A stretch of DNA of 64,000 bases from Ostreococcus lucimarinus. Its lineage: Eukaryota. The notes below the pieces were generated by a model, which made no database searches, had not been told where the DNA came from, and was given only the letters and a program-made list of their open reading frames with translations. The position numbers and the translations under genes were made by a program. The stretch lies in NCBI GenBank assembly GCA_000092065.1, contig CP000586.1. One strand, 5' to 3'. This document shows positions 8,534-25,726 of the stretch, piece by piece (position 1 is the stretch's first letter; every line of letters starts with the position of its first letter).

Positions 8534-11500
8534 TCAAGACGTCTTCGGACGCAGGGGCATCGCGCTGCCATCCGACGTTCGAGTAAACTCGAACAGCACG
8601 GCTGGAGAACGGTAGATACGGATGAGAAGCCAATAAAGACGCTCCTCGAGAACAAAATCTCTCACTTGACGCGCGCTGTAAATATCGCTGCACAGCGAGA
8701 TGAGACGGTGCGTTGATGGCAAATCGACGTGCTGGATGCTGCCGACGAGATTGTTGGTGAAGCCTCGAACGATGGACGCCAAAGTTAAGATGTAGACGAC
8801 GTACACGCCCGTCAGACCACCAACAAATTGACTGAACGTCGCAAAAACGCCGGTCGGTACTTCGGATGAGATCAACACGATCTCAGGACCGTTCTCAAAC
8901 GCACTGCAGGGTCGCCACCAATCCAAACTCTGTCGATTCTCTTCCGAGGCTGCGAGGGGAACGACGTATGTTCCGCAATCGACGGACCACCACGGTGAGG
9001 TCGTGTTGTACCCATTCAGGGCAAGCGTGCAACTTATACTTTGTTGACTCGAATAATTCGGCACGGGCGAACCTTTGCCGTGCAAGTGCCAAACTCGCGG
9101 GTAAATGTTTTCCAAGAAGACATTGTTTTGTTCGCCGTTGAGCACTCTGATAAGCGCGGCGGCTTCGTCTTCTGCAAAGGTGTAGTCGACGCCTTCTGAA
9201 TATAAAATAGGATTATCCAGCGGTAAATGACGTTTAAACATCCAACCCGTGGTTAGTTTTGCACCACTTGAGAGAGACTTCTTCAAAGCCTCGATAGAAG
9301 GTGGAGGGGGCGACCAGACGGTGTCGCTGTCTTTCGCCAAACACGCCTCCTGTATTTGTCCAGGCTTGTTTATCATTGGTATCGGTCCATCCGTGCGAAG
9401 AGTCGACCACGGCATCGTTTCAATCGTTTTTCTGAATCCGCCTTCAAAGATTGGATACTTGAAGGTGTTTTCTGCTCCAATCAAGCTCATGTTGAACCGA
9501 ATATCGTAGACTGGATTGATGTCGACTTGTGGGTTTGATGTGCTGAATACGAAGAACGGCACGACCAACAGACTGAAAATGATCGTAAAAAGACCACCAC
9601 CCTCGAGGAAAACTTTTTTCCACCATGGTTGGGGTTGACCGAACGGATGATACTTTCTATAAGTGTTATTCCGGACGTTGATTCTGAACAAGTCACGCGA
9701 GATGTTCTCAAGCTTCAACCAGTCGTAAAGATCCAGGGCGCTGTCCGTGCAAGCATATTCGAGCAACACGCGTAATTCGTACATGAACGGAATCGAAAAG
9801 TACGCCATGAAAGCTCCAAAAGAAATAATATCAGAACGCTGGAAGATCAAGCTGTTCGTGAATACTTCAGCTGGGAACCCACAGCGTATTTGTCGCGCTC
9901 CGAGAGTGAACGACAACGACTTAAGGAGGAAAAAGAATTGCAAATACGAGTGACGTGCCGTCGTGTTCTGGTGGAAAATCATCAACAAAAATCCAACAAA
10001 TCCAGCATACGTCAAGTAGTGGTAGAAAACTTTGGCAATCTTTGCTTTTTTCATGTAAATCACTCCATCAACGACGATGAGTACCAAGCAAATGAAGACG
10101 GATACGACGTAGTCAATTTTGAACAAACCTTGATAGTATGTCTCCACCAATGCCTCTGCATCTGAGTCCACCGTGTTTTGATAGCAAATCGCCACGAAGA
10201 ATGTTGCGAGGATGTCGAAACAAAGCGTCGCGGTGTAAAAGTCCTGACCTTCTTGGTGGAAACCACGAACAGACGTGAGGCCAAGCGGGGCTACATCTGA
10301 GCCGCCAGCAGCTTCTCTGAGTTGCATCGCCTCAAGCGCTTTACTCGCCTCCGCACTAGGACGAAGGACGGAAACTGGGGCTATAACGCGGAATATTGCG
10401 GCACGATGTCCCGGGCTCGTTCGTAGACTATCGGTGTCTACTTGCACAAACTCGAGCGTGTAGTACGAAAGCGGTAGTTTTGAGCCACCTTCAGAAATCG
10501 TCTGGTGATTAATGAGTGCGTCGTTCACTCGGGCGACAATTTCATCCCAATCTGGCTCTGCATCTTCCTGTGCGAGGACTGAAAGCGCTACGAATGACGG
10601 ACCATACTCAGCTTCCGGAGTTAAGATTCGTTGGAAGAAATTATCCATTTCTGCTAGCAATCCTCGAGAGACTTCGATGTGGAAAGGTGAAGACTCAGAA
10701 TCGTCTTGGCGCGCGAAATTCATTTCAAATTCCGCAAAATGGACATTTTTAAACCTGGAAAACAGGGCGTTCGCGGCGAACAAGTCGCCGTTATTGCCCT
10801 CGTCACGCTCTTCGCGACGATGAATTTCATCTCTTGGTGTTTGCTGAGCGCTGTGGTGCACCGTGATGGCGATGTATGCCATGAACGCACCAATCATGGA
10901 AGGGACAAACGCACTACTGGCATCCTGGATACCGAACACGACTCCCGTATGAGCGCAGGCGGTCATACCCGAGCATTGCAAAGAACAAGGAATAGTAACA
11001 ACGTACGCAACGGCGAGCGATAATTCGGCGTACAAGAGAATCAATCGCCAAAATCCGGCAGGCACCACTGGATACGTCATCAGTCCGTATGCGATGATTG
11101 ACGTGGGAAAGACGAGAGCAGCGATGGAGAAATCGATGGCAAAAGCCAGTATCATGAAAAAATAGCACATTGAATACCGGGGTGCTGTCAACCACGGCCA
11201 TGCTTTCAAAAAGGCGCCAAATAATAAGCCAATTGTGGAGCTGCGATCACCAAGCCAGGTATGAAGTAAGGCTGTCAAATCCTTCTTCGGGTCATCCACA
11301 CTCGTGCGCATCTTCAGCTCGTGATCACGGAGTTGCGCTGCTCGCAAGTCCTGCCTTTCGGCGTTGTCTTCGTCTTCTCTGATCCATTCTTCATTGTTCT
11401 CATCGTCATCGCTGTCTCTGACGCCACGCCGACGGCGGATTGTATCACTTGGTGGCTTGCGGTCGCCCGTCGGTTTGCGACGAGTGCCTCGACTTTCCAC

Positions 11501-14500
11501 AGCGAGAATCTCTCGAGACAGACTTGTGATTTCGTTCCTGATGTCCTCTACTCTTTGACGACGATTTTCTTTCTCGCTCACCTTGGTCAAACAAGTTGCC
11601 AAACTTTCATGAATCCATCCCCGCTTCAACGCATCGTCGACAATGCGCTCCGCTTCAATGGACTGGCGACGCATAATCATCGCGGCTTTGTATGTGGGCT
11701 GAGTGATGATGCTTCTCAACAAGTGAACGATGGCAAAAATGACCAAATCCGGTGAAAGTTGACCAGACTGCCATCCGAGCACCGTGGGAAGCTTGTAAAA
11801 TCCAAAGCCTTGAAGTAGCGAACATTCAGACTCAACAGATACGTACCAGTCACCTAGTAAGCCTTCAAGCGGAGCTTGGTAAAGGAGAATCGCGCCGATG
11901 ACGGATACGTTGTACAGTTGCAAAATTCTCAAGCCCATCAGACTGTCCATACTCAAAGAATCGCGCGTACGGAGAAAATAGAATGGCAAAATCAAATAGC
12001 CAACGTGCATGAGATCTCGCGAAAAAGTGCCAAAGAAAATCACCATGACCAATGCCCAGTCAACTGCGTATCGCAAGTAAAAGTATCGCATCCATTCAAG
12101 GATGGTCCAATTTGTACTTGCTTCCCAGGTAAGCGGTGCGAATAAGATGTCAAAGTACGACGTCTCCTGCGTTTCCGGCGGGAGCAAAGCAACTTGTGTC
12201 GGTGTTTGCCTCGGTACCATCGTGGCGATCAACTCTGAAATCATAGCTTCATCTAACTCCGCGCCTTCTGCTTGCGTCGCCTCTATCGTCATTCGCGCGC
12301 GCTCTTCCAGAGCTGCTAAAATGGCATCCATCCTCAGTTGGCAAGCGGCGATAAAGAAAGCGCTAAAATAGCCAAACAGCATCATTTTGCTGCATGGGTA
12401 AACGGCAAGCCACTGTCTAGTCTCTCGTGAAAGCCGCATTTGTTCGCTCGCAGTGGAGAGGAGTGCCCGTGCAAACGACGGCGATGGTGGAGGAGACGGC
12501 GGAACGTCATCCACGCGGTTTTGCACGATATCAATCGAGACAACGTACTGCCATAGGACTATCAAGGCGCAGATCGCCGTAGTAAAGCGCCATAAGAGCA
12601 AGCGGTCACGCGGCGTGGACCCAAGCTTACTGTTAATCAACTTGAAAGTTACCCCTAAGTAGACGAGAGACAGCATGTTTGTAGACGCGATTCCGACAAT
12701 CGCAAAGACTACGTACAACAAACCTGGCATGAGATTCGCCATCATGCCTTCAATCATTTCAGGAACGATGGAAAGGAGCATAATCATCTGTCCCAGATTC
12801 GTTTGTGCATTTTCTCTCACTCGCTTAGTGAATTCGCGACGTGCCTCATCGCTCGCCGCACTTTCGCCTTCATCCGCGATGTCGGACGTGCTCTCCGAGA
12901 TTTCAGACATTGCTTTGTCATCTAAGTCGTCCATTTCCTTGCTTGCATCGGTGTTTTCCGTTTTTCGTTGAACAAGCATCGCTCGTGCGTCGCGTTGCGG
13001 CCAGAAGAGGTGACAAGGTTCAGGAGAACATCCAGATTTCAACGCCGGTGGTAGTTTCCTCAACCAGAAGCGTGTCGCCTTGGTCAACTCAACGGAAAGT
13101 ATCACCAGCACCGGATAGCGAAGCATGGATTCATTCTCTGGTATGAAATCACTCGGCGATTCTGGCCACTTATGCGCACCCAAGAGAGTCAAAATACCCC
13201 AATGTTGTCCCGCTTGAGTGTATTGAATCTTATAGGCGTAATCGATGATGGCAGAAATGAGTGCAACTGTACCAACCAGTTCGGTGGGACCATCGCTCGT
13301 TTTCATCGACAACGTCGCTGCGATGAGTGCTGCGAGCATCAATAATCCGAGCAAATCTCGGCGCTCGAGACTAAACAAGATTGCACAGAGGGTAACGATT
13401 TTATTTGTGTGCAAAATGATGGCTCGCTTCACAAGTGGCAGAAAGCCAAGCTCGGTTGCGGCCAACGGCAGACTTCGTCTCGCATCCACTGCATTGCTCA
13501 TCGTGAGCAATCCAATCTCGTGGAAATATGTTACGACGAGGAGAGTGCTCGGTCCGATCAATTCAGCCATGAGCTTGCCTGGCTCGACATTTTGCGCCAA
13601 CCCTACCGCGTTTGAGAGGAACGCCTTGAACTCGGTGGAGAATCCAAAAATTTCGTCGAGCGGGAAAGCGCCAAAGGCGTAACGACTCGCGAGATTGAAT
13701 AAACAGAACAACAGAACAGCGCGCCATCGACCGGACTCGGTTTCTTCTGAGTGCCGTTTAGCGATGCAATTCAATCCAAGGAGTACGAGAAGTGTCAAGT
13801 TTATCAGCGAACACTGCGACGTTTCGAGCGTCACCAGACCAACCAAGAGCACTAAATAAGCGCCAAAGCGCGTCATCAACTTCATGAGCACCAACGAGCA
13901 CTCGTACACTACGGCTTTACCCAAAGACACCAATGAGTTCAAGGTTCCCTGGCCAGGCGCACTATCTTCCTCAGTTTCCGGCGTCAGCGCGTTAAGGACC
14001 TTCTGCAGGTACAGCACGATGCAAATTACCACCAAAACGCAGGCGAAAGGTCCAGTCGTGTGAATCATGTTTGATTGCTCAAGGCCTAAAACACGCAATG
14101 TCGTCGCCCACTTCGTGTGGTACACATTGAATATATTAACGTGTTCATTCATCGCCCACAGATACAACGCCGCAACAAAGCCAGCGAGTGTTTGTGCCGT
14201 CAGATGCAATACCGTCCGGTCTCCCGGTTTGAGGATATTGAACAAGAATGCCAATAGCAATGCGGCGTGGAGTAAATCGGCTCGCGATAGAGCCACAATC
14301 CACAGTGCGAAGGGCACCAAGAGGTGTGAGATCAACTGAACTAAAGGCAAATCCCACATCAAGCGACTGTCGTCGACGGCCGGGTTATGCTCAATCTCAA
14401 GGTCATCTAATGGTACAAAATCCACAATGACACCATCCTGCACTCTTTGTTCCAGAACGTCATCCGTCGGGGTACTCTTGGCGTTCTTTGTGAGCCAACC

Positions 14501-15742
14501 GACAAAGGTGAGCGTGGCTACTAAACTGCCCATATAACACGCGTTAATGCCCGATTGCTCGCCGTTGTGCGCTGGCGATGCACCGAATATTTGTAGCAAA
14601 ACTCTTACTTTGCCGTTCATGGATGACATCATCACTGGTGGAATGCAAAGCAGGGCGTACTCTCCAACGCTCCAAAGCGCGACGTAGGCGAAAATCACCG
14701 GACCGTGCACGTTCGCAAACGTCGTGTGACGCGTTGGGTTCACGACGAGAATCAATCCTAGCAAAAGCATGGGGTACGCAATTACGTTAACGACGAGTAA
14801 TGACGTCGCGAGTAACGTAAAGCCAGCCAAGACGCCGCCAAATCGAGCCAGCAAGCGGGCGACTGTTCCCGCGTCATCGTAGGTGTCCACGACGTCTGCA
14901 TCTGAAGCTGACTCCCCCTCCATCAAAGGCGCTCTAATACCTTCACCGTCTGCGGTATCGTAATCGCTGTCGTGTGACTCCACCGCACACAGCGCCATGA
15001 ATAGCCCGCCGATAGCGATGATTTGCGTCAAACGCAACAATCGCGCCACCGGCCCTTCCGTCCTATCCATCGAATACAACCCAAGCAACTGCGCCGAAGA
15101 CTCTCGCGCCGCGTCTTGCAACTCCGGTAACTGATACATGTAAATTGCCATGAAATGAATCGCGGTGTAGCACAAGCACGCCACCGTGGCCCTTCGCGGA
15201 AGATTTAATAAACTCTCGCGCGCACCTTGAAATTTGCCACCGACGCCGCGCCGCATCTCAGTTGCGAAATACGACACCACGAATAATAAATACATCATCG
15301 ACGACAGTGAAGGCACTGTCACCGCCGCTAACGCCGCCGTACACACCGTCACGCGCATCACCGTCTCCTTATCGCTCACTGTCGTCGCAAACGCCCCTTC
15401 CGCGTCGCCGCCGTCGAGCGCGCTCGCGCGCTCGCTCGCCCCATCCACGTACAGCTTACTTCCTCCCGCGAGCGCGATCCCGAAATAAGGCACAAAGAAC
15501 AGCACGTAGTCTATGATGCCATCCAATCTTCCGAACCCTAAATACCGCAGCGCGTCCGCTTGCCATGGATTCCTCGGCCACGCCGCTCCGAAACCGACGT
15601 AACACGCCTGCGTCGCGCAATTCCCCAACAGCACGAACGCACACAGCCCCATCACCCCCCACCACACGTCTCTCTGCACCCGCGTCAGCGCGTGCGTATT
15701 CTTTCGTCCCTCGTGCACGCGTTCGATCGCGAACGCCGTCAA
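8534..15742 (-). CDS. PIEZO: Piezo-type mechanosensitive cation channel
   Basis: 2402-aa ORF with dozens of predicted TM helices. The C-terminal region contains the Piezo pore-module signature ...FGAFMAYFSIPFMYELRVLLEYACTDSALDLYDWLKLE (PF(x2)E(x6)W motif). Confidence 0.8.
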   Translation of the reverse strand: MTAFAIERVHEGRKNTHALTRVQRDVWWGVMGLCAFVLLGNCATQACYVGFGAAWPRNPWQADALRYLGFGRLDGIIDYVLFFVPYFGIALAGGSKLYVDGASERASALDGGDAEGAFATTVSDKETVMRVTVCTAALAAVTVPSLSSMMYLLFVVSYFATEMRRGVGGKFQGARESLLNLPRRATVACLCYTAIHFMAIYMYQLPELQDAARESSAQLLGLYSMDRTEGPVARLLRLTQIIAIGGLFMALCAVESHDSDYDTADGEGIRAPLMEGESASDADVVDTYDDAGTVARLLARFGGVLAGFTLLATSLLVVNVIAYPMLLLGLILVVNPTRHTTFANVHGPVIFAYVALWSVGEYALLCIPPVMMSSMNGKVRVLLQIFGASPAHNGEQSGINACYMGSLVATLTFVGWLTKNAKSTPTDDVLEQRVQDGVIVDFVPLDDLEIEHNPAVDDSRLMWDLPLVQLISHLLVPFALWIVALSRADLLHAALLLAFLFNILKPGDRTVLHLTAQTLAGFVAALYLWAMNEHVNIFNVYHTKWATTLRVLGLEQSNMIHTTGPFACVLVVICIVLYLQKVLNALTPETEEDSAPGQGTLNSLVSLGKAVVYECSLVLMKLMTRFGAYLVLLVGLVTLETSQCSLINLTLLVLLGLNCIAKRHSEETESGRWRAVLLFCLFNLASRYAFGAFPLDEIFGFSTEFKAFLSNAVGLAQNVEPGKLMAELIGPSTLLVVTYFHEIGLLTMSNAVDARRSLPLAATELGFLPLVKRAIILHTNKIVTLCAILFSLERRDLLGLLMLAALIAATLSMKTSDGPTELVGTVALISAIIDYAYKIQYTQAGQHWGILTLLGAHKWPESPSDFIPENESMLRYPVLVILSVELTKATRFWLRKLPPALKSGCSPEPCHLFWPQRDARAMLVQRKTENTDASKEMDDLDDKAMSEISESTSDIADEGESAASDEARREFTKRVRENAQTNLGQMIMLLSIVPEMIEGMMANLMPGLLYVVFAIVGIASTNMLSLVYLGVTFKLINSKLGSTPRDRLLLWRFTTAICALIVLWQYVVSIDIVQNRVDDVPPSPPPSPSFARALLSTASEQMRLSRETRQWLAVYPCSKMMLFGYFSAFFIAACQLRMDAILAALEERARMTIEATQAEGAELDEAMISELIATMVPRQTPTQVALLPPETQETSYFDILFAPLTWEASTNWTILEWMRYFYLRYAVDWALVMVIFFGTFSRDLMHVGYLILPFYFLRTRDSLSMDSLMGLRILQLYNVSVIGAILLYQAPLEGLLGDWYVSVESECSLLQGFGFYKLPTVLGWQSGQLSPDLVIFAIVHLLRSIITQPTYKAAMIMRRQSIEAERIVDDALKRGWIHESLATCLTKVSEKENRRQRVEDIRNEITSLSREILAVESRGTRRKPTGDRKPPSDTIRRRRGVRDSDDDENNEEWIREDEDNAERQDLRAAQLRDHELKMRTSVDDPKKDLTALLHTWLGDRSSTIGLLFGAFLKAWPWLTAPRYSMCYFFMILAFAIDFSIAALVFPTSIIAYGLMTYPVVPAGFWRLILLYAELSLAVAYVVTIPCSLQCSGMTACAHTGVVFGIQDASSAFVPSMIGAFMAYIAITVHHSAQQTPRDEIHRREERDEGNNGDLFAANALFSRFKNVHFAEFEMNFARQDDSESSPFHIEVSRGLLAEMDNFFQRILTPEAEYGPSFVALSVLAQEDAEPDWDEIVARVNDALINHQTISEGGSKLPLSYYTLEFVQVDTDSLRTSPGHRAAIFRVIAPVSVLRPSAEASKALEAMQLREAAGGSDVAPLGLTSVRGFHQEGQDFYTATLCFDILATFFVAICYQNTVDSDAEALVETYYQGLFKIDYVVSVFICLVLIVVDGVIYMKKAKIAKVFYHYLTYAGFVGFLLMIFHQNTTARHSYLQFFFLLKSLSFTLGARQIRCGFPAEVFTNSLIFQRSDIISFGAFMAYFSIPFMYELRVLLEYACTDSALDLYDWLKLENISRDLFRINVRNNTYRKYHPFGQPQPWWKKVFLEGGGLFTIIFSLLVVPFFVFSTSNPQVDINPVYDIRFNMSLIGAENTFKYPIFEGGFRKTIETMPWSTLRTDGPIPMINKPGQIQEACLAKDSDTVWSPPPPSIEALKKSLSSGAKLTTGWMFKRHLPLDNPILYSEGVDYTFAEDEAAALIRVLNGEQNNVFLENIYPRVWHLHGKGSPVPNYSSQQSISCTLALNGYNTTSPWWSVDCGTYVVPLAASEENRQSLDWWRPCSAFENGPEIVLISSEVPTGVFATFSQFVGGLTGVYVVYILTLASIVRGFTNNLVGSIQHVDLPSTHRLISLCSDIYSARQVRDFVLEERLYWLLIRIYRSPAVLFEFTRTSDGSAMPLRPKTS

Positions 15743-17401: not shown

Positions 17402-20400
17402 TTACGCCGTCAGCGCGGCGCGCTCCGCCTCGACTGCGGCATTACTCTCTTGCTGTTGAAGCTGCGCGAGTTGGTTGGCGCCAACCTTGAATGCGCCCGG
17501 ATTGATCGCCACTGTCTTCGTGGTGTTGTTGGTCTTGTAAATACCGACCAATCTATCCGCGAGCTCGAACATGTTATTGCGCAGAGAAATGATCACAAAC
17601 TGAGCGTTTTTCGTTCGCTCCTTGATGTAATGTCCGACGATGGAAACGTTCTTGAAATCCAACGCAGCGTCAATTTCGTCCATGACATACAACGGTGTGG
17701 GCTTGTAGTGATGCAAAGCAAACACCAATGCGAGCGATGAGAGCGTCTTCTCACCACCGGATAAATTGGCGATGTTCTTCCAGCTCTTCTTCGGCGGGCG
17801 CACGCTGAAAACAATGCCCTCGGAGAAGGGATCGAGCGAATCTACCAGCTCAAGTTCGGCATCACCACCGAGAGTGATCATTTGATACATCTCTTTGAGT
17901 TTGAGCGAGATAATATTGAAACCATCCATGAACTCGTTGAGTCGTTTTTGTCGTAGCTTGTCGTACGCTTCACGAGTGTTATCACGCTCCTCCGTCGCCG
18001 CGCTCAACTCAGCGGCGCGCTCTTCGTACTCCTCCGCTTTCTTCGCGTACGCTTCGATAGATGACATGTCAGGCTTTGCAGCCGCGAGTTCTTCTTCTAA
18101 AATCACCGCCTTTTCTTGCATCTCGTCCGTCGTATGTTGCTCGAGCTCTTCGTCGTTCAAGAGTTCAGGCACTTCACCCTCCGCGTAAAGCGACGTGCGC
18201 TCCTTCGTCACCTTGTTGATTTCTTTATTCCAGTGCTTTTCCTTGTCTTTATTCTCCTTCTGGACGACGCTGAGGTCGTCTAATTTCGCTTGAATATCAA
18301 CTTCAACGCCTCGGATGGTGCCGACAATTTTCATTATTTCATCGAACGCTTTCTGTGCCTCGGAGAACTCGCCACTCTTCACTTCAAGGAGCTGCTTAAG
18401 TTCGCCTTGCGATTCGAGTACGGCGGCGGCGCCGTCTTCAAGTGCCTTGAATTCAGCCTCGTGATTCTGCATATTAGCCTTAATTTGCTCAACTTCGGCT
18501 TGATTGGCTTCGATTCCCTTGGAGAGACGAGCGGTCGTCCCTTCGTGAGACTTGGCCTTGGCGCGCTTCTCGGTGACGGCGTCAGACGCTGCAGCGATGC
18601 CGGCGGTGAGATCCTTGACTAACGCTCGCTGCCTTTTCAAGCCATCACCGCCAACGTTATCCATCTTTTGTTGCAACTTGGCTTCCTTCTGTTTAAGAGC
18701 GGCTGCACCCGCCGTGACTTCATCCAACACAACCTTGGCCTTTTCAACTTCTTTGTCGAGTCTCTTGAGCTCGTCCGCGTCGTTCTTACTCGCGTCATGC
18801 GCCGCTTCGAGTTCAACCAAACGAGTGGACAAATCAGCAGCCTTGGCTTCGGCTGCGTCAAATTCAGCCTTCAACTTGGGAATCATGCGTTCGATTTTGT
18901 TGACGATCGCCTCTGCATCGCGAGCCTCCTGGAGAGATTTGAGCGCCACCTGACGCGAGCGTTCGTAGAGTTTTCCAGCTTGTTCAAGCTCCACCTCTGC
19001 CATTTTAATCTCTTTCGCCACTTCGGCGGCATCGGTAATCACTGGTGCTTGATTTCCAACGCGCATTCTACCGGTACGCGGCTTGGAACCGCCACCACTC
19101 AACGTACCGCTGGTCTCAAACAGTTGACCCTGAATGGTAACCACTCGACGGCGCTTCTCGCCGTGAGCCAGGCGCGAAGCTTGTTCGAGATCTTGAGCCA
19201 CTAAAGTATCACGAACTCCGAAGTAGAAAGCGACCGCAAAGCGTTCTTCCGCGGGTTTGATCAAATCGATCAGGCGCGGCGCGTTGTCCGGGTTGGAAAC
19301 CTTTTCGTTCATCTTAGAAAGAAGATGCTTCTGTCTGTCGAGGGCAAGAAAGTTGCCCCGACCGAGGTTGTGCTTCCGAAGGTACGACACACAAAGCTGC
19401 GCATCGGACGTGGTTTCAACCAAGATGTGATCAAGAGGTCCACATGCAGTCGACACCGCGACATCATATTCTTTGTCAATAGCCCCAAGATCACCGAGAC
19501 GACCGAGAACACCCTTGAGCGCGCCAGCGGCTTGAGCGTCAAGCAACGCTTGCACCATCGCATTCTGACTCTTCTCCGTCTCGGCCGTCGAACGACGTTG
19601 TTCGAGCTTACCACGAATCTCACGAGTCTCAGCTTGCGCAGCGGCTTCTTTTTCTTTCGCATCGGCTTCCATTACTCGAGCCTTATCGGCGCGCGCGCGC
19701 TCTGTCTCCAACGTCGCTTCCTCTTCGCCGATGGTTTTCTTCAACTCGATAGCCTTCACGCGTGCCTCCTTTTGACCCTCACGTGCCGCGTTCAAAGACT
19801 TTTCTGCATCAGCGTGTTTTTCAAGGAGAAGGGCTCGCTCAGACGTAGCGACGTTGAACGCCCCCTGAGCCGCGGCGAGCTTACCTTCCCACGGCGCCAA
19901 ATCCTTTTGCGCTTGGTCGAGTTCGCGGCCCACCGCTGCGAACTCATCTTGCAAGCTAGCGACGAGAGCATCCAAAGCAGCCTCTTCTTTGTCGATTCTT
20001 GCCTCGAGATCTGCCTTTTTTGCTTCCAAAACGGGCACTTCTTTCTCAATCGCCGCGCATTCCGCCGCCATTTTCTGCTGCTTTTCCGTGTCCGTGGCAA
20101 TTTTCGTGTTGAGTTTCTTCACCGACGCCTTCATGTTTTTCAACTCCTCTCGATACTTGGCATCCTTCAGCTCGAAGTCGGCAAAGTCTTTCACACTCTT
20201 GTCGAAATCAGCTTGAATCTTGGACAATTCGTCAGCAATTTCGCCCTTACGGCCCTCTGCAGCCTTCAACGCGTCCTCGTGCTCGGAGTGTTTCGCGCGC
20301 TCTTCTTCGAGCTTTTGCGTGAGCGCATCCTTGTTTTCTTGAATCTTGACCAAGTTGGTTTGCGTCTCTTTGATGAATAGTTGGTACATCGTCGATCGCG

Positions 20401-21384
20401 TAGACAAGAGCTCTTTTTCTTTCTCTAAGAACGCCTCCGCCTCCGCCTTGACGATGGCGAGCGCATCCTTCTCACCCTCGACTAACTTCAATCGGTTTAC
20501 CATGACATCGCGCTGCTCGTTCAACTCCTCCAACTTCTTGCTCGCCTCTTCGATGGGCTCGACGTATTGCAAAGTACCGATGATGTCTTCCAAGTATTCC
20601 AATAAGCCTTCATCGCCCGGCGCCGCCCCTTTCGGCTTCATCATGGAAATTTGTTCAACTTCCCCTTGCAAGATGAGGAAACGGTTGTTGTTTAAATCCA
20701 CATCCTTCGACTTTAACAACTTTGTCACCTCTGTGAACGAGCTCGTCTTATCGTTCACGAAGTATTTGCTCGAGTTATTCCTGTACGCCTCGCGAGAGAT
20801 GACGAAATCCGAGTTCGGCACGATATCGTATCCTTCTTCGTCGTCCACGTGATCGATGATTTCGTGAAAGTGCACCTCCACACGCGCGTGCTCCAAATTT
20901 CTGAAATCTGTAGAGTTGTGAATCAACTCGCTCACCTTATTCAATCGCAACTGTTTCGCTCGTTTACCGAACACAAACATCATCGCGTCGATCACGTTCG
21001 ACTTCCCGCTCCCATTCGGGCCGACGACGGATGAAAAACTCTGCTCGAGCGAGTCGCGCGCGGCGCGTCAGTCCCCCGTCGTCGCGACGCGCGAACCAGT
21101 CAAATCGAACTCGAGCGCGTCGACATCCGCGCCCTCGCGCGCGTCCGAGCGCGCACCTTATGAAACGGTCCCACGTGTTGCGCCCCCGCGTAGGATTTAA
21201 AATTCTCCAGCACCATCTTCTTGATCGCCAATCGCGGTTTCCGCGCTCGTCGCTTCGCGTCCTCGTCGTCCTCGCGATGTCGTTCCCGTTCGTCCGTCTC
21301 CGTCGCCGTCGCGTCCTCGCGCGCGCGCGCGTCGCTCGCGGGCGCGTCATCGTCGCATTCGCGCGCGCCGTCTTCCGCCGTCAT
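17402..21384 (-). CDS. SMC4: Condensin subunit SMC4, two exons: 21384..21157 and 21050..17402, intron 21156..21051
   Basis: C-terminal LSGGEKTLSSLALVFALHHYKPTPLYVMDEIDAALDFKNVSIVGHYIKERTKNAQFVIISLRNNMFELADRLVGIYKT is diagnostic of SMC4. The N-terminal exon PRLAIKKMVLENFKSYAGAQHVGPFHK joins via a 106-nt GT..AG intron to SFSSVVGPNGSGKSNVIDAMMFVFGKRA (Walker A). Long coiled coils and the hinge lie between. Confidence 0.85.
21051..21156 (-). other. GC-rich 106-nt GT..AG intron of SMC4 (donor GTGCGC, CTGAC branch-like motif, acceptor CAG)
   Basis: Removing it joins GPFHK to SFSSVVGPNGSGKS in phase, restoring the canonical SMC N-terminus. Confidence 0.75.
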
Positions 21385-21389
21385 CGCGC

Positions 21390-21395
<6 letters not shown>

Positions 21396-21429
<34 letters not shown>
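21396..21429. repeat. (CGT)x11 trinucleotide repeat in the SMC4/MT-A70 intergenic region
   Basis: cgtcgtcgtcgtcgtcgtcgtcgtcgtcgtcgtcg. Confidence 0.9.
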
Positions 21430-21430
<1 letters not shown>

Positions 21431-21516
21431 GGTGTGTCATCCGTCGCCCGACCAACGACCGTTCCGTTCCCCTCTGTCGATGGCGCACGTGTCGCGCGGA
21501 ATACGGGGTTTCGTAC

Positions 21517-21526
21517 TTTTTTTTTT
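21517..21526. repeat. T10 homopolymer in the divergent promoter
   Basis: gtacTTTTTTTTTTgaaaattc. This is the only AT-rich patch between SMC4 and MT-A70. Confidence 0.85.
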
Positions 21527-21728
21527 GAAAATTCAAACGCCGTCGACAGGTGCGTCGATCGCGCGGCGCGCGCACTTGGACGCGCGCGCGCGCGGACGAG
21601 GCGACGGACGAGCGACGCGCGGTGCGGTGCGCGAGACGGACGCGCGCGCGAGCGAACGAACGCGGCGGGAACCGCGCTCGAAGACGCGGGAAGACGCGCC
21701 AGCGGTCGAGGCGTCGACAGCGCGCGAC

Positions 21729-23070
21729 GATGGCGAACGAGGACGGCGATGTCGCCGCGGGGAGCCGGCCGAAGCGCAAGGCGAGCGCATCGTTGCGAGC
21801 GCGGACGTCGCGAGGGAAACAAGCGCCGTCGAGCGCGCACTACGTGGGATACGTGCAAGACGACGAGACGCCAGAGATGATTATGAAAAAGTTTGAAGAG
21901 ATGGAACGGATTCGACAAGCCACCAAGGCGCAAGTCGGTGAGGATGGTGATAAGGAGAACAAGGAAGGCGCGACAAACGGTGCGGGTGGAGACGCGGTCG
22001 GGACCAACGGCGACGAGCACGAAGGGTTGGACGAGGAACAGTTGAAGGAGTTGTTCAAAAATACGTCTACGTTTACGGTGAAGGAGGCCGTGATGGATTC
22101 TAACGCGCTTTTCGGTGATATGAGGATCGCGAACGAAGATGGGATGTATTTCTCGGACGATGAAGAGTTGCAAGATGAATTCTGGGAGGCGCTGACCGGT
22201 AAGAAGCGTAGAGGTAAGAAATCCAAGGGGCCGAGAGTGCCGAGAGCGCCGAGAGCGCCGCGCGAACCAAAGGCGGCGCAGTCACACATGATCACCGCGT
22301 ACAATAGCGACCAAGGCTTGTTCTTGCGCAAGAAGAAGTTTGTTGATCCTTTCGAGCCTGTCATCATCAAGGTCCCGGCGCACCCGATTCCAGTGAGCTA
22401 TGGACGAGTAATTCAGCCGTACGAACCAAAATCGGTGCGAGAGGCGAAACTGAAACAAGTTCCCGATTGCGTGCACATGCAAACGAACATCAAGAAGATG
22501 GAATATGAATCGCTCGGTAAGGACTATTTAGGTGTGCTCATGAACCCGCCGTGGGATATTGAAGATTCCCCAGATCGCGGCGACGTGACGTTGGAGGACA
22601 TCGAAGCCATTCCGCTTGAAAAACTCACGCCACTCGGTTTCATCTTTATTTGGGTTGAGAAGGAAAATTTGTCCAAGGTTTGCGACATCATGGACCGAAA
22701 GAACTTTGTCTACGTAGAGAACTTGACGTGGGTACAACTCAAGCCGAACAACACGATCGTTGAGTCCTCTGCGCGCTATCTTGGTCGCTCGCACAGAACA
22801 ATGCTCATCTTCAGACGAGACGTTCGCGACAAGCGCTTCATTGAAGGGAAGAAGATTGAGTTGCGACACCAACGTAACTCGGATGTGACTCTCGATATTG
22901 TGCAGACCACGAAAACTGGTCGACGTGTTGTCCCTGAGCACGTGTACAAGTCCATCGAAACTCTTTTACCGACGGCGTACGAACCTGGAACGCCTGGTAA
23001 GCTCCTCGAATTGTGGGCCGAACCGGGCGCGCGACGCGCGGGTTGGACTTCCGTGGCGGATACTCCTTAG
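21729..23070 (+). CDS. MT-A70 family N6-adenine methyltransferase (NPPW motif IV)
   Basis: ...LGKDYLGVLMNPPWDIEDSPDRGDVTLEDIEAIPLEKLTPLGFIFIWVEKENLSKVCDIMDRKNFVYVENLTWVQLK aligns motif-by-motif with the METTL3/MTA catalytic core ADPPWDI...FLFLWV...IIWVKTN. The N-terminal about 250 aa is acidic/basic low complexity. Confidence 0.7.
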
Positions 23071-23091: not shown

Positions 23092-23988
23092 TCAATCCCT
23101 TTGGATACGTCTAATTTTTCTTCCGCTACTGCTAATCGTCGGTTTGGACAGAACTAATTCCTCTTGAGCTCTGGAGTGATTTACGTCGCCCCGCTGCCGT
23201 CTCTTCCGCCTATTTGTGGTGATGTTGCGTGGCTTTGACTCTTCTTTCGCCATCGCACGCTTTGTCTGTGCCTTCAGGGACGCACGATACATCAAACTTT
23301 CCTCTGTTTGCACAATAGTTCGCTTCGACGGCCCTCTGCAAATACTTCGCGAGTCGCGCAAAAACGTCTCCAACTGCTGCTTGCCGGCGCCGAGTCGCTT
23401 TGCCTCGCGCACTTTTTCATCCTCATCCACCGATTTTCTAGACAACCCTTTGGCCCAAGATGGAAGTTTTGGATTGAACCACATATTTTTACACTCTCGA
23501 ATCACGCTCAACGATCGCGGAACCTCGTTTGCGTTGCGATTGACGCGAATAATATCGCGCATTCGAGTCTTCAAATCCGTTCCAATAAAATGGTGCTCGC
23601 TCGCGTACATATACGCGACTGCAGTGTCCTCCAATCCTTCGGCGAATTGCTTCCAGCCTTTCAACGTCGTTCTAAAATTCTCACCCACATTTAAGCACCA
23701 AATACGTTTCCGTCGCAACACGTCGAGGAGCAGCATCAACTGCTCGTCGTACACCCCGTCTTCGAAGTTTTGCAAGTACAGCGCTTCGATTTTCGTGTTT
23801 TCCTTCAGCGCCTCGAGCACCGCATCGATCACTACCGGCTTAGCCGTGCTAGGGACGTATCGCTTCAACCTCAAGACCTTACCTCCGGCGTCACACGCGA
23901 GTGTGTTGTCGCGTAGGCGCGCGATGAAGTCGACGAAGGCGGGCGACTCGAGAACGTTCGAGCCAGATTCTCGCCGCTTCGCGCGCAT
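23092..23988 (-). CDS. Hypothetical protein (298 aa), leucine-rich N-terminal half, basic C-terminal tail
   Basis: Long ORF with coding-like composition and no motif I recognise. The stop lies only 21 bp from the MT-A70 stop. Confidence 0.35.
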   Translation of the reverse strand: MRAKRRESGSNVLESPAFVDFIARLRDNTLACDAGGKVLRLKRYVPSTAKPVVIDAVLEALKENTKIEALYLQNFEDGVYDEQLMLLLDVLRRKRIWCLNVGENFRTTLKGWKQFAEGLEDTAVAYMYASEHHFIGTDLKTRMRDIIRVNRNANEVPRSLSVIRECKNMWFNPKLPSWAKGLSRKSVDEDEKVREAKRLGAGKQQLETFLRDSRSICRGPSKRTIVQTEESLMYRASLKAQTKRAMAKEESKPRNITTNRRKRRQRGDVNHSRAQEELVLSKPTISSSGRKIRRIQRD

Positions 23989-24161
23989 CGCTGGGCGATG
24001 TCGGCGAACCGCGTGACGCTGTGTCTGTTTAGCTCACCCGCGGTCGTCGGATCGCGAGCGATGCCGTCGAAGAATGAGGCAGAGGCGGTGATACTCGCGG
24101 CGAAGAATCCAAGCCGTCTGGGCGACACGCGCCTCCAATGGATGGTGTAGTTTTCTTTTAA

Positions 24162-24166
24162 TTACA
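24162..24166 (-). promoter_or_regulatory. TGTAA (TTACA on the + strand) 7 nt after the stop of the Cys-repeat gene
   Basis: attTTACAtctcgtcta. Confidence 0.3.
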
Positions 24167-24172
24167 TCTCGT

Positions 24173-25726
24173 CTAGCGCTCGCACGCGAATTGTGGAGAA
24201 AATTTTCTATCTGTGCACCCAGTCACGTGCGCCTTATCATCCCAACGTCCGGCGAACGGGACGATAGTGTCGTAAAACAGACACGTCTCGCGCATGTCCT
24301 CCTCGTCCGAGTCGTTGGAGATCCAAGCCCAAGCTCTGAACGCGTGGCTAGGTTCGAGGGCGTATTTTCTACAATCTACCGGCGACTTGGCGGTACCAGT
24401 ACCGAGCGGGGTCGCAAAATCTGCCTGGTCCAGTCCGATTAAGCCGTGCACGATGTTGGGGTTGGATGAGCTCTCGTCAGGGACGAGCACCTCGTCGGAT
24501 TCCTGATGCGCCACGGGTTCTGGGTTGGTCGGTACTGGCGACCGCACATCCGAGGGCTGATTAACAGGTTCTTGTACCGGCTCAGCCACCTTGGCCGGTG
24601 TCGTTGAGACCTCTGGTTCTGGGGCGGGGATTGCGCTCGTCGCGTTTTCGTCCGCGCACGCATGCAACGGCGAGACATCGGAAGCGGTGCACCCAGTGAT
24701 GAGCGTCGGCTCCTCGTAGCCAGCAAATGGCACGATTTCTTTGTAGAACAAGCATGTCGATCGCAATGAGAGATCATTCGCTTCCGAGTTAGCGTAAGCG
24801 AAAGCCACATAATTGTGCTCAGCGGCGAAATCTCTGCATTCGCCCGGACCGCTCGTCGATTGCCCTCTACCGAGCGGCGTTTCGTAAGCAACATTCAAAC
24901 CAAGCATACCGCGAACGATGTTCGGGCGAGTCTTCCGCACTTGCGGTGCGGGCTCAACTACAGCTTCCACCTCCTCCGTCTTCGGCACCCCCGGCTCGGA
25001 CACTGCGGTAGCTACCTCGTGCTTGGCCGCGGGCTCACCCGTCGCCGCCATCGCCGTGCTCTCAAGCTTGCATCCGTTCGCTGGAGATACATCGAAGCTC
25101 GTGCAGCCCATGATGTGCGCGTGATCTCCCGGGTACCCCTCAAAGGGCACTACTTCGCGATACATCAGACACGAGTTTCGCAACCGCTCGATGTCCGAGT
25201 ACGAATTCACCCACGCCCACGCCACGTAGTGTTCCTTTGCGTTGTCCGCGTACTCTCGGCACGCTCCGGGGGAATCAGCGTTACCGACCCCAGCCGGCGT
25301 TTCAAACGCGCTCATTTTCGGGTCAATGAAACCATTCACTATATTCGGATGATTACCGCGCACTTTCGCGTACGCCGCGGCTTCTTCCGCCGTCAGCGGC
25401 GGTTTGATTTGCTTCAACATCTTCACTTTGGTGTTGGATTCCGGGGCGACGACGTCGATCTTGCCCGACGTTGCCGGAGCGTGACGGTGTTGTGGCACCG
25501 ACACCACAGTACTCGTCGCGCTCTGTTCCGCGCACACGCACTTCGGCCCGTCGTCGCATCCCAAGTCCACGACCGCGCCATCGCCATCGCCGCGACCGAG
25601 GGCGAGACCCACGCCGACGCCGACGACTAACGCGGTCACGCCGACGACCACGGGGCGCTTGTACCACGGCACCGCAGTTGATTTGTGGGGGCGAGACAGT
25701 ATGAACGCTTTCTCTTCGTCCGACAT
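24173..25726 (-). CDS. Type-II membrane protein with three tandem ~95-aa four-cysteine repeat domains (unknown family)
   Basis: N-terminus MSDEEKAFILSRPHKSTAVPWYKRPVVVGVTALVVGVGVGLALG is a signal anchor. Three repeats follow: NIVxG..(x)TPxGxG..SPxxCRxYA...HYVAWAWVNS...LRxxCLxYxxIVPFxGY......GCTxxxVSPxxxC. Pro/Glu/Val-rich linkers separate them. Confidence 0.5.
   Translation of the reverse strand: MSDEEKAFILSRPHKSTAVPWYKRPVVVGVTALVVGVGVGLALGRGDGDGAVVDLGCDDGPKCVCAEQSATSTVVSVPQHRHAPATSGKIDVVAPESNTKVKMLKQIKPPLTAEEAAAYAKVRGNHPNIVNGFIDPKMSAFETPAGVGNADSPGACREYADNAKEHYVAWAWVNSYSDIERLRNSCLMYREVVPFEGYPGDHAHIMGCTSFDVSPANGCKLESTAMAATGEPAAKHEVATAVSEPGVPKTEEVEAVVEPAPQVRKTRPNIVRGMLGLNVAYETPLGRGQSTSGPGECRDFAAEHNYVAFAYANSEANDLSLRSTCLFYKEIVPFAGYEEPTLITGCTASDVSPLHACADENATSAIPAPEPEVSTTPAKVAEPVQEPVNQPSDVRSPVPTNPEPVAHQESDEVLVPDESSSNPNIVHGLIGLDQADFATPLGTGTAKSPVDCRKYALEPSHAFRAWAWISNDSDEEDMRETCLFYDTIVPFAGRWDDKAHVTGCTDRKFSPQFACER

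What the first reader, a model, noticed from the sequence alone, without database searches (positions are those of the whole stretch)
21729..23070. MT-A70 adenine methyltransferase with NPPW motif: candidate DNA 6mA writer rather than the canonical mRNA m6A subunit?
The catalytic core aligns with METTL3/MTA1 (xPPW, FIFIWV, TWVQLK). Motif IV is NPPW rather than DPPW, and the N-terminal half is a long charged low-complexity region without the METTL3 zinc fingers. In ciliates, green algae and early fungi, MT-A70 proteins of this general shape (MTA1/AMT1) deposit N6-methyladenine on DNA near the TSS. The gene shares a 345-bp bidirectional promoter with condensin SMC4, which would fit chromatin-linked function.
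Basis: partly seen in the sequence, partly recalled or inferred. Interest (0 to 1): 0.55.

Follow-up and report, generated by a model that had tools for sequence, protein, structure and literature searches.

The report
Ostreococcus partner subunit of 6mA methylase
This gene from the tiny marine alga Ostreococcus encodes the helper subunit (AMT6/7, also called MTA9) of the enzyme complex that puts N6-methyladenine on DNA. It is most likely not the methyl-transferring enzyme itself, although it keeps an enzyme-like NPPW motif.

Summary
A single-exon gene (21730-23070, +; 446 aa) encodes an MT-A70-fold protein with NPPW, GFIFIWVEKE and LTWVQLK. It lies 345 bp from a divergently transcribed SMC4 gene. 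The window is Ostreococcus lucimarinus.

The protein belongs to the DNA-6mA machinery, not to METTL3/METTL14. But it falls in the AMT6/7 (MTA9) partner clade, not with the catalytic AMT1/MTA1:
- PDB phmmer gives MTA9/AMT7 2.8e-22, AMT1 about 1e-9 and METTL3 1.7e-4.
- In an NJ tree it groups with Tetrahymena MTA9 (89.5% bootstrap).

It keeps the ELRHQR arginines that are essential for DNA binding in AMT7. All seven side-chain SAM contacts of AMT1 are substituted. A canonical DPPW AMT1 occurs in Ostreococcus-like genomes and is published for O. tauri, which has ApT 6mA after the TSS.

So this is most likely the non-catalytic, DNA-binding partner. Two smaller points are new:
- NPPW is invariant across Mamiellophyceae, unlike the eroded ciliate motifs NALW and NIKW.
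- A 2025 survey table scores O. tauri and Micromonas as lacking AMT6/7, probably a false negative, because Pfam's MT-A70 model misses this protein.

The SMC4 adjacency reflects a compact genome and block synteny, not functional linkage.

The parts
21730..23070 (+). Complete CDS (446 aa plus stop) of the AMT6/7 (MTA9)-family MT-A70 protein
   Evidence: ORF and sequence. The exact protein is in public collections. PDB best hits are MTA9/AMT7 at 2.8e-22.
21829..21912 (+). N-terminal conserved block 1 (aa 34-61, SSAHYVGYVQDDETPEMIMKKFEEMERI). It is family-specific and its function is unknown.
   Evidence: Near-invariant in algae, fungi and Amoebozoa. Predicted helix 48-71. No PDB sequence match.
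22027..22089 (+). N-terminal conserved block 2 (aa 100-120, LDEEQLKELFKNTSTFTVKEA)
   Evidence: Conserved columns F109, T112, S113 and F115. Predicted helices 102-124.
22214..22393 (+). 180-nt in-frame GT..AG segment that the NCBI O. lucimarinus model (386 aa) removes as an intron. It encodes conserved residues and is most likely coding.
   Evidence: P0002 lacks exactly these 60 aa. The boundaries are GTAAGA...CCAG. Invariant P216 and P219 and near-invariant D206 lie inside it. The O. tauri protein (439 aa) and the metagenome gene calls retain it.
22282..22422 (+). Conserved block 3 (aa 185-231, SHMITAYNSD...PIPVSYGRVIQPY) preceding the MT-A70 core
   Evidence: Alignment A2. Predicted beta-hairpin 187-202.
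22486..22491 (+). N253-I254, the position of the SAM-adenine-binding Asp/Val of AMT1 (D182/V183) and of METTL3 D377/I378
   Evidence: hhalign mapping and PDB alignment register. This position varies (N/K/P/D) even within Mamiellophyceae.
22543..22554 (+). Motif IV, NPPW (aa 272-275)
   Evidence: Sequence. NPPW in all 28 family sequences that carry it, i.e. nearly all Mamiellophyceae-like members; one otherwise similar sequence, P0027, reads T-RRG in that column. It is variable elsewhere in the clade.
22636..22752 (+). Core strands and helix GFIFIWVEKE ... YVENLTWVQLKPNN (aa 303-341)
   Evidence: Aligned to MTA9, AMT6, MTA1 and METTL3. pLDDT 84-92.
22747..22818 (+). Segment aligned to MTA9 'interface loop 2' (MTA9 348-359), which packs on MTA1
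   Evidence: Gap-free alignment to MTA9 344-367. The interface role comes from PMC9852454.
22810..22887 (+). Basic loop plus the invariant ELRHQRN motif (aa 361-386). R379 and R382 are equivalent to the essential DNA-binding arginines R379/R382 of AMT7, and K374/K375 lie near MTA9 K371/K374.
   Evidence: Invariant E377-R382. Alignment to MTA9. Mutagenesis data are in bioRxiv 10.1101/2025.04.24.650485 and PMC9852454.
23005..23067 (+). C-terminal LELWAEPGARRAGWTSVADTP. It is the counterpart of AMT1 LEIFGRRNNLRxxWxTIGNEL, with the SAM-contact residues replaced.
   Evidence: hhalign and family table.
21385..21729 (.). 345-bp divergent intergenic spacer shared with SMC4. It contains a (CGT)11 repeat at 21395-21427.
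17402..21384 (-). Neighbouring SMC4 gene: exon 1 21384-21157, intron 21156-21041, exon 2 21040-17402. It is not part of the system and is listed as context only.
   Evidence: Pfam SMC_N and hinge. PDB SMC4 at 1e-230. Splice junction GPFHK|SFSSVVGPNGSGKS.

Best explanation
The gene encodes the Ostreococcus lucimarinus orthologue of AMT6/AMT7 (MTA9). This is the MT-A70-fold partner subunit of the AMT1 (MTA1) DNA N6-adenine methyltransferase complex, which maintains symmetric 6mA at ApT dinucleotides just downstream of transcription start sites.

**Inferred mechanism**
- Its C-terminal MT-A70-like domain pairs antiparallel with the catalytic domain of a separately encoded DPPW AMT1.
- It contributes a basic surface, above all R379 and R382 of the invariant ELRHQR motif, that holds duplex DNA next to the AMT1 active site.
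- It does not bind SAM or transfer methyl groups itself, because the AMT1/METTL3 SAM-contact residues are replaced.
- The strictly conserved NPPW loop is then a retained structural or nucleic-acid-contacting element, not a catalytic centre. METTL14's EPPL is the analogy.
- The conserved N-terminal blocks probably mediate recruitment or assembly; how is unknown.

**Shown here:** clade membership, fold, conservation of the DNA-binding arginines and loss of the SAM-pocket residues.

**Inferred:** heterodimerisation with AMT1, lack of catalysis and the role of the N-terminus.
For: 1. PDB phmmer scores: MTA9/AMT7 2.8e-22 (82.6 bits), AMT6-like 8xyl_B 1.4e-18, MTA1/AMT1 about 1e-9, METTL3 1.7e-4. 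No METTL14 or METTL4 chain appears at E<=10.
2. NJ tree of the MT-A70 core: the window protein, 15 homologues and Tetrahymena MTA9 form a clade with 89.5% bootstrap. The clade excludes ten AMT1 sequences, METTL3 and METTL14.
3. The C-terminal half aligns to MTA9 through ELRHQRxSDV, ETLLP and (L/M)EL(W/F)..R.GW, none of which occurs in AMT1.
4. E377-L378-R379-H380-Q381-R382 is invariant in the 12-sequence alignment and near-invariant across the 117-sequence family. These two arginines align to AMT7 R379/R382, whose mutation largely abolishes complex activity.
5. Profile-profile alignment to 51 AMT1 sequences (probability 99.8%) maps the MTA1 SAM contacts onto the window protein (contact list from PMC9852454):
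   - D182 to N253, V183 to I254, D209 to N272, S332 to R399
   - R357 to E431, N360 to A434, N370 to D444, E371 to T445
   Several of these positions vary freely within the family.
6. Canonical DPPW AMT1 genes sit on Ostreococcus-like contigs. Their tetranucleotide signature correlates 0.92-0.95 with window chunks, the same as window chunks with each other at 0.93-0.95. The Nat Genet 2025 survey lists AMT1=1 and METTL3=METTL14=METTL4=0 for O. tauri and reports ApT 6mA after the TSS there.
7. The family's taxon range (green algae, Mucoromycota, Glomeromycota, Basidiobolus, Amoebozoa) mirrors the AMT1/6mA distribution.
Against: - Motif IV is NPPW, which satisfies the [DNSH]PP[YFW] signature that the ciliate papers use as the criterion for catalytic competence. 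It is invariant across Mamiellophyceae despite only about 50% overall identity, so something selects for it.
- I could not identify the AMT1 gene of O. lucimarinus CCE9901 itself, nor p1/p2 orthologues.
- The published survey table scores O. tauri as AMT6/7=0, which conflicts with my placement unless that entry is a false negative.
- No biochemical data exist for any algal AMT6/7 protein.
- Foldseek does not discriminate between MTA9 and MTA1.
- The tree is only NJ with BLOSUM62 distances, and the MTA9 sequence in it was spliced from two PDB-aligned fragments.
Confidence: 0.8

Rival explanations
1. One reading: the NPPW protein is itself a catalytically active DNA 6mA writer. It would act either alone or as a second active subunit beside AMT1, for example allowing both strands of ApT to be methylated by one heterodimer.
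For: - NPPW matches the [DNSH]PP[YFW] signature and is invariant in Mamiellophyceae.
- N-PP-aromatic motifs are used by bona fide N6-adenine methyltransferases (general knowledge, not tested here).
- The fold is intact.
Against: - All seven side-chain SAM contacts of MTA1 are changed, including R357 to E, N360 to A and S332 to R.
- The Asp that reads the SAM adenine is N/K/P/D within Mamiellophyceae alone.
- The protein sits in the clade whose characterised members are inactive: the MTA9 N150A mutation has no effect, and fungal Mta9 is described as inactive.
- A canonical AMT1 is available in the genus.
Confidence: 0.08
2. It is a subunit of an mRNA m6A writer: a METTL3-like catalytic subunit or a METTL14-like partner.
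For: - JGI/IMG's automatic name is 'N6-adenosine-specific RNA methylase IME4'.
- There is weak similarity to the METTL3 core (1.7e-4).
Against: - It lies outside METTL3 and METTL14 in the tree.
- No METTL14 hit appears at E<=10.
- It has no CCCH zinc fingers and no RGG tail.
- The survey finds neither METTL3 nor METTL14 in O. tauri.
- The family is absent from animals and plants, which have the m6A writer.
Confidence: 0.02
3. It is a pseudoenzyme with a function beyond scaffolding. In this reading the retained NPPW pocket binds a flipped adenine or 6mA, for example reading the parental-strand 6mA of a hemimethylated ApT and so giving the complex its maintenance preference.
For: - The N/D...aromatic ends of the motif are kept across the whole clade, even where the prolines are lost (NALW, NIKW, NPGW, NAAW).
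- AMT complexes prefer hemimethylated ApT.
- The subunit lies on the DNA-binding face.
Against: - The MTA9 N150A mutation in NALW had no obvious effect on activity in vitro.
- No structure-based evidence was available to me from the DNA-bound complexes (9u9e, 9u9k, 9vu6).
- This is speculation from conservation alone.
Confidence: 0.1

Closest known systems
Tetrahymena thermophila AMT7 (MTA9) and AMT6 (MTA9-B), partner subunits of the AMT1/MTA1c DNA 6mA methyltransferase complex (PDB 7yi8, 9o6k, 8xyl)
   Same: - MT-A70 fold, and the best sequence match (2.8e-22 and 1.4e-18).
- The shared motifs ELRHQR (the DNA-binding arginines), ETLLP and (L/M)EL(W/F)..R.GW.
- A gap-free match to interface loop 2.
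- Loss of the SAM-contact residues.
- Same clade in the tree.
   Different: - Motif IV is a canonical NPPW instead of the eroded NALW or NIKW.
- There is no large internal insertion. MTA9 has about 100 extra residues between the core strands, and AMT6 carries its PIP box there.
- The N-terminal region carries three blocks conserved in algae, fungi and Amoebozoa. None has a detectable match in the ciliate chains.
Fungal Mta9 (Rhizopus microsporus MTA1c: Mta1/Mta9/P1)
   Same: - Same family. Mucorales, Glomeromycota and Basidiobolus homologues align end to end at 33-36% identity, including the N-terminal blocks.
- Fungal Mta9 binds Mta1 and is essential.
   Different: - The fungal homologues have DPPL or DPPF rather than NPPW.
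- They retain a KP dipeptide where Ostreococcus has VP.
- Many fungi have two Mta9 paralogues. I saw only one gene here, and only 64 kb was visible.
AMT1 / MTA1 (catalytic DNA 6mA methyltransferase)
   Same: MT-A70 fold; a motif IV of the form x-PPW; GF(I/L)F(I/V)W and WV(K/Q) strands. The profile-profile match has 99.8% probability over 176 columns.
   Different: - Only 25% identity.
- It lacks RRGQSQKP, GRxNNLR and IGNEL, which carry the SAM contacts.
- It is not in the AMT1 clade.
METTL14 (non-catalytic partner of METTL3)
   Same: The analogous role: an MT-A70 pseudoenzyme that keeps a motif-IV-like loop (EPPL) and supplies the nucleic-acid-binding surface to a catalytic paralogue.
   Different: - No detectable sequence similarity by phmmer.
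- A different clade.
- The substrate of its complex is RNA, not DNA.

Membership tests
AMT6/7 (MTA9) clade of eukaryotic MT-A70 proteins | MT-A70 (class beta) methyltransferase-like fold in the C-terminal half | tested here: met
   AlphaFold model with a confident core. Foldseek matches MTA1c and METTL3-14 chains at E about 1e-12.
AMT6/7 (MTA9) clade of eukaryotic MT-A70 proteins | Closer in sequence and phylogeny to AMT6/AMT7 than to AMT1, METTL3, METTL14 or METTL4 | tested here: met
   phmmer gives 82.6 bits to MTA9, 41.6 to MTA1 and 24 to METTL3. The NJ clade with MTA9 has 89.5% bootstrap. METTL4 and AMT2/5 reference sequences were not in my tree.
AMT6/7 (MTA9) clade of eukaryotic MT-A70 proteins | Conserved DNA-binding arginines (AMT7 R379/R382) in the ELRHQR motif | tested here: met
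   R379 and R382 are invariant in the 12-sequence alignment and near-invariant across the 117-sequence family. They align to MTA9.
AMT6/7 (MTA9) clade of eukaryotic MT-A70 proteins | Degenerate SAM pocket (no cofactor seen in MTA9) | tested here: met
   By sequence only: 0 of 7 side-chain contacts are identical to MTA1. SAM binding itself cannot be tested here.
AMT6/7 (MTA9) clade of eukaryotic MT-A70 proteins | Absence of the [DNSH]PP[YFW] signature. This is a trait reported for the characterised ciliate members and does not define the clade. | tested here: not met
   NPPW is present. Other clade members also keep DPPW, DPPF or DPPL. The trait is therefore lineage-specific and does not exclude membership.
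AMT6/7 (MTA9) clade of eukaryotic MT-A70 proteins | Co-occurrence with an AMT1 gene in the same genome | tested here: inconclusive
   DPPW AMT1 genes are found on Ostreococcus-like contigs, and AMT1=1 is reported for O. tauri. The CCE9901 copy was not pinned down.
AMT6/7 (MTA9) clade of eukaryotic MT-A70 proteins | Physical heterodimer with AMT1, and a requirement for complex activity | not testable with these tools
   Needs co-IP or reconstitution.
AMT6/7 (MTA9) clade of eukaryotic MT-A70 proteins | Presence of p1/p2 (AMTP1/2) DNA-binding partners | not tested
The only Myb gene in the window (854-1777) is SHAQKYF-class and does not match p1.
AMT1 / MTA1 catalytic clade | DPPW plus the conserved SAM contacts (ADV, GQSQKP, GRxNNLR, IGNEL) | tested here: not met
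   NPPW is present, but all the SAM-contact motifs are absent or replaced.
AMT1 / MTA1 catalytic clade | Phylogenetic placement within AMT1 | tested here: not met
   score ranking.
METTL3 (mRNA m6A catalytic subunit) | CCCH zinc fingers N-terminal to a DPPW MT-A70 domain, and orthology to METTL3 | tested here: not met
   There is only one Cys in aa 1-247. METTL3 matches at only 1.7e-4, and the protein lies outside METTL3 in the tree.
METTL14 | EPPL motif and orthology to METTL14 | tested here: not met
   No METTL14 chain at E<=10. Separate in the tree.

The most novel reading that the evidence does not exclude
In Mamiellophyceae the AMT6/7 partner has not fully become a pseudoenzyme. Its invariant NPPW loop would form a working adenine pocket. 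It could be a second, unconventional catalytic site, making AMT1-AMT6/7 a dual-active heterodimer. Alternatively it could be a reader pocket for the parental-strand 6mA that sets the maintenance specificity. If so, the 'inactive partner' picture taken from ciliates would be a derived state. The ancestral eukaryotic 6mA writer would have had two motif-IV-competent subunits, as suggested by DPPW in Amoebozoa, DPP[LF] in fungi and NPPW in prasinophytes.
Probability: 0.1. Interest if true: 0.6.

Novelty: new member of a known kind. Interest (0 to 1): 0.3.

Why it matters
**Annotation.** The gene carries the JGI label 'RNA methylase IME4', and its NCBI model drops 60 conserved residues. This analysis assigns it to the partner subunit of the DNA 6mA maintenance complex.

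**Published survey.** A 2025 survey scored Ostreococcus and Micromonas as having AMT1 but no AMT6/7. They then look like Trichomonas-type exceptions. Finding a clear AMT6/7 orthologue restores the rule that AMT1 and AMT6/7 co-occur. O. tauri XP_022839183.1 is its annotated counterpart. The finding also warns that Pfam-based screens miss this clade.

**Biology.** The intact, lineage-invariant NPPW together with a degraded SAM pocket is a clean natural test case. It can show what motif IV does in MT-A70 pseudoenzymes. O. tauri is transformable, and 6mA can be read by nanopore sequencing, so the experiment is feasible.

Tried and rejected
1. **Pfam scan.** There was no MT-A70 hit, only N6_N4_Mtase at E=0.008 and below its cut-off. 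Family assignment had to come from PDB phmmer, profiles and fold.
2. **Short AMT1 query.** A 99-aa Tetrahymena MTA1 fragment taken from a PDB alignment returned only short gene fragments of 174 aa or less. Full-length AMT1 sequences were then obtained through a profile search of cluster representatives.
3. **Pinning the O. lucimarinus or O. tauri AMT1.**
   - Cluster look-ups of 20 AMT1 clusters and of five neighbouring genes gave no Ostreococcus-named record.
   - GC alone misleadingly pointed to P0403/L009.
   - Tetranucleotide signatures instead tie L016, L017 and L018 (P0395, P0391) to Ostreococcus-type DNA, and L009 to the organism of L015.
   - The result is genus-level evidence only.
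4. **Nat Genet tree file.** I tried to read where the O. tauri sequences fall, but the stored file is truncated to the taxon list.
5. **Foldseek against the PDB.** It confirms the fold but cannot separate MTA9 from MTA1, METTL3 or METTL14.
6. **N-terminal half against the PDB.** There was no meaningful match, so the conserved N-terminal blocks remain unexplained.
7. **SMC4 co-regulation idea.** Rejected, because the adjacency is block synteny and is lost in one Mamiellales-like lineage.
8. **Myb gene at 854-1777 as a candidate p1.** Rejected, because it is SHAQKYF-class and has no p1 match.
9. **PIP box of the AMT6 type.** By eye I found no Qxx[LIM]xx[FY][FY] or KKITDFF-like motif, and the protein lacks the internal loop that carries the motif in AMT6.
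Full report
**What is there**

On the + strand an ORF runs from ATG 21730 to the stop at 23068-23070. It encodes 446 aa with no interruption. The motifs quoted are present:
- NPPW at aa 272-275 (nt 22543-22554)
- GFIFIWVEKE at aa 303-312
- YVENLTWVQLKPNN at aa 328-341

The minus-strand neighbour is SMC4. It has Pfam SMC_N and hinge domains, and its best PDB matches are SMC4 at 1e-230. Its first exon (21384-21157) is separated from the main ORF by a 116-nt intron. The junction reads GPFHK|SFSSVVGPNGSGKS.

**Organism and gene model**

The NCBI protein 'predicted protein [Ostreococcus lucimarinus CCE9901]' (P0002, 386 aa) is identical to the window protein except that it lacks aa 162-221. Those 60 residues correspond to an in-frame GT..AG segment at 22214-22393. 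Three observations argue that the annotated intron is a mis-prediction:
- The segment contains no stop codon.
- It encodes positions that are invariant or nearly so across the family: D206, P216 and P219.
- The 439-aa O. tauri orthologue and every ORF call on metagenomic contigs retain it. The O. tauri protein is XP_022839183.1 / CEF98283.1, annotated 'MT-A70-like'.

The exact 446-aa sequence is on record from hundreds of marine contigs.

**Which MT-A70 family**

Pfam's MT-A70 model does not reach this protein. Against all PDB sequences the ranking is clear:

| PDB chain | E-value | bits |
|---|---|---|
| Tetrahymena MTA9/AMT7 | 2.8e-22 | 82.6 |
| AMT6-like chain 8xyl_B | 1.4e-18 | 70.4 |
| MTA1/AMT1 | about 1e-9 | 41.6 |
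| human METTL3 | 1.7e-4 | 24 |
| METTL14, METTL4 | none at E<=10 | - |

The extra score against MTA9 comes from the C-terminal half. There the window protein and MTA9 share ELRHQRxSDV, YxxIETLLP and (L/M)EL(W/F)...R.GW. AMT1 sequences read quite differently in this region: RRGQSQKP, LEIFGRxNNLR and TIGNEL.

I recovered reference sequences from PDB alignments: MTA9, an MTA1 fragment, and METTL3 and METTL14. The last two I had recalled from memory and then verified at or near 100% identity against PDB chains: METTL14 matched exactly, and METTL3 differed at two residues from the top-listed chain, whose printed sequence I used in the tree. I built an NJ tree of 161 trimmed core columns. The window protein, 15 homologues and Tetrahymena MTA9 form one clade with 89.5% bootstrap. 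That clade excludes ten AMT1 sequences, two unnamed DPPW clades, METTL3 and METTL14.

A template-free AlphaFold model gives a confident MT-A70 core. Foldseek confirms the fold but does not separate the subfamilies. Identity is 26-28% to MTA9 chains and about 20% to MTA1 and METTL3.

The homologues come from Mamiellophyceae, Chloropicon, Cymbomonas, Trebouxiophyceae, Volvocales, Mucorales, Glomeromycota, Basidiobolus and an amoebozoan. This is the known range of the AMT1/AMT6/7 pair.

**Is it a writer?**

The literature uses [DNSH]PP[YFW] as the catalytic signature and notes that ciliate AMT6 (NIKW) and AMT7 (NALW) lack it. By that test the Ostreococcus protein passes. NPPW is also present in nearly all Mamiellophyceae-like members: all 28 family sequences with NPPW are of that type, and one otherwise similar sequence (P0027) reads T-RRG in that column. 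This holds even though these proteins are only about 50% identical overall.

The motif varies elsewhere in the clade:
- NPGW, NAGW, NQGW and NPDW in other green algae
- DPPL or DPPF in fungi
- DPPW in Planoprotostelium

So erosion is lineage-specific, and the ancestor probably had [DN]PPW.

The cofactor pocket is a different matter. Yan et al. list the MTA1 residues that hold SAM. A profile-profile alignment of 117 family members against 51 AMT1 sequences (probability 99.8%) maps them as follows:

| MTA1 SAM contact | Window residue |
|---|---|
| D182 | N253 |
| V183 | I254 |
| D209 | N272 |
| S332 | R399 |
| R357 | E431 |
| N360 | A434 |
| N370 | D444 |
| E371 | T445 |

No side-chain contact is retained. 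The arginine and asparagine that clamp the ribose and methionine become Glu and Ala. The position of the adenine-reading Asp is N, K, P or D within Mamiellophyceae alone. A conserved SAM site is therefore very unlikely.

The partner-specific functional residues, by contrast, are intact. AMT7 R379 and R382, whose mutation largely abolishes activity and which contact the DNA mimic OCR, are the two arginines of ELRHQR. They align to R379 and R382 here and are invariant in the 12-sequence alignment and near-invariant across the full family. They sit in a very basic stretch, FRRDVRDKRFIEGKKIELRHQRN, next to the equivalents of MTA9 K371/K374. The segment matching MTA9 interface loop 2 aligns without gaps.

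**Is there a separate catalytic subunit?**

A profile of AMT1 cores found canonical DPPW AMT1 proteins. One of them, P0265, then retrieved a dense set of Mamiellales-like orthologues. All lie in a conserved neighbourhood: OBG GTPase, PSS, an unknown gene, AMT1, a small gene, SR140/Surp and a DOT1-like gene.

None carries an Ostreococcus name. However, loci L016, L017 and L018 have tetranucleotide signatures that correlate 0.92-0.95 with 16-kb pieces of the window. This equals the piece-to-piece correlation within the window, 0.93-0.95. Bathycoccus-like and other contigs give 0.80-0.88.

Independently, Romero Charria et al. (Nat Genet 2025) list AMT1=1 and METTL3=METTL14=METTL4=0 for O. tauri. 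They also show ApT 6mA in the first nucleosome linkers downstream of active TSSs in O. tauri and Micromonas.

The same table gives AMT6/7=0 for both species. Given the annotated O. tauri orthologue and the Pfam miss, I read that entry as a false negative. I could not inspect their full tree, which does list three O. tauri sequences.

**Mechanism proposed**

By analogy with the solved Tetrahymena complex, the C-terminal domain would pair antiparallel with AMT1. It would supply the ELRHQR/basic surface that positions duplex DNA. AMT1 would bind SAM and methylate the unmethylated strand of hemimethylated ApT sites.

The N-terminal half has no zinc fingers and is mostly predicted disordered. It nevertheless carries three blocks conserved from algae to fungi and Amoebozoa (aa 34-61, 100-120 and 185-231). 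These have no counterpart detectable in the ciliate chains or elsewhere in the PDB. In ciliates the divergent tails and loops of AMT6 and AMT7 recruit PCNA or BET/H2A.Z-linked factors. A recruitment or assembly role is therefore my inference for these blocks; it is untested. The protein has neither the ciliate internal insertion nor an AMT6-type PIP box.

**SMC4 neighbourhood**

The order DUF819, SMC4(-), this gene(+), UbiA(-), Fer2(+), formin(-) is kept in a Bathycoccus-like contig of GC 0.46 (window genes). That contig lacks the two unannotated genes at 23092-25726. In another Mamiellales-like contig the gene follows UbiA and Fer2, and SMC4 is not adjacent. In genomes this compact, divergent pairs a few hundred bp apart are the norm. 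The adjacency is not evidence of function.

**Verdict**

The pathway is right: DNA 6mA, not mRNA m6A. The subunit is wrong: this is most likely the non-catalytic AMT6/7/MTA9 partner, not the writer.

It is a new, so far mis-annotated, member of a known family, with two modest novelties. A canonical NPPW is retained and invariant in Mamiellophyceae despite a degraded SAM pocket. And a published presence/absence table probably needs correcting.

A reading in which NPPW marks residual catalysis or 6mA reading is not excluded. I put it at about 10%.

Noticed in passing
window 22214-22393: The NCBI O. lucimarinus gene model (386 aa) removes a 180-nt in-frame GT..AG 'intron' that encodes conserved residues (D206, P216, P219). 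It is probably an annotation error, or at most an optional intron.
   Followed up: partly
window 21395-21427: A perfect (CGT)11 trinucleotide repeat lies in the 345-bp spacer, 11 bp upstream of the SMC4 ATG. It could be a length-polymorphic element in the shared promoter or 5'UTR.
   Followed up: no
window 24173-25726 (-) and 23092-23988 (-): Two genes between the methylase-like gene and UbiA have no Pfam hit and are absent from the syntenic Bathycoccus-like locus L013. The 517-aa product contains three repeats of about 95 aa, each Cys-containing (NIVxG...ETPxGxG...C(R/K)xYA...AWAWxNS...CLxYxxIVPFxG...GCT...SP..C), behind a predicted N-terminal membrane anchor.
   Followed up: no
L001 9191-10015; L009 9513-10148; L016 16672-17400: In all the Mamiellales-like AMT1 loci I fetched that extend far enough, the catalytic AMT1 gene lies within about 5-6 kb of a DOT1-like (PF08123) histone-methyltransferase-type gene and next to an SR140/Surp gene. 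This is conserved synteny of two chromatin-mark enzymes; its significance is unknown.
   Followed up: no
window 854-1777 (+): A single-repeat SHAQKYF-class Myb protein (CCA1/RVE-like; PDB 6nvz at 7.5e-07). It is not a p1/AMTP1 homologue.
   Followed up: partly
window 8534-15742 (-): A Piezo-type mechanosensitive channel homologue in a picoalga: a 2402-aa ORF with Piezo cap, THU9-anchor and THU domains. The ORF begins at TTG, so the true start or upstream exons were not defined.
   Followed up: no
PMC12695648, supplementary table of MT-A70 distribution: O. tauri and M. pusilla are scored AMT6/7=0 although O. tauri has XP_022839183.1, an orthologue 81% identical to the window protein. The likely cause is that the PF05063 HMM misses this clade.
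   Followed up: partly
P0745; P0581: Picoeukaryote AMT1 sequences are deposited in NCBI under bacterial MAG names ('Candidatus Dependentiae bacterium', 'Ilumatobacteraceae bacterium'). This indicates eukaryotic contigs mis-binned into bacterial MAGs.
   Followed up: no
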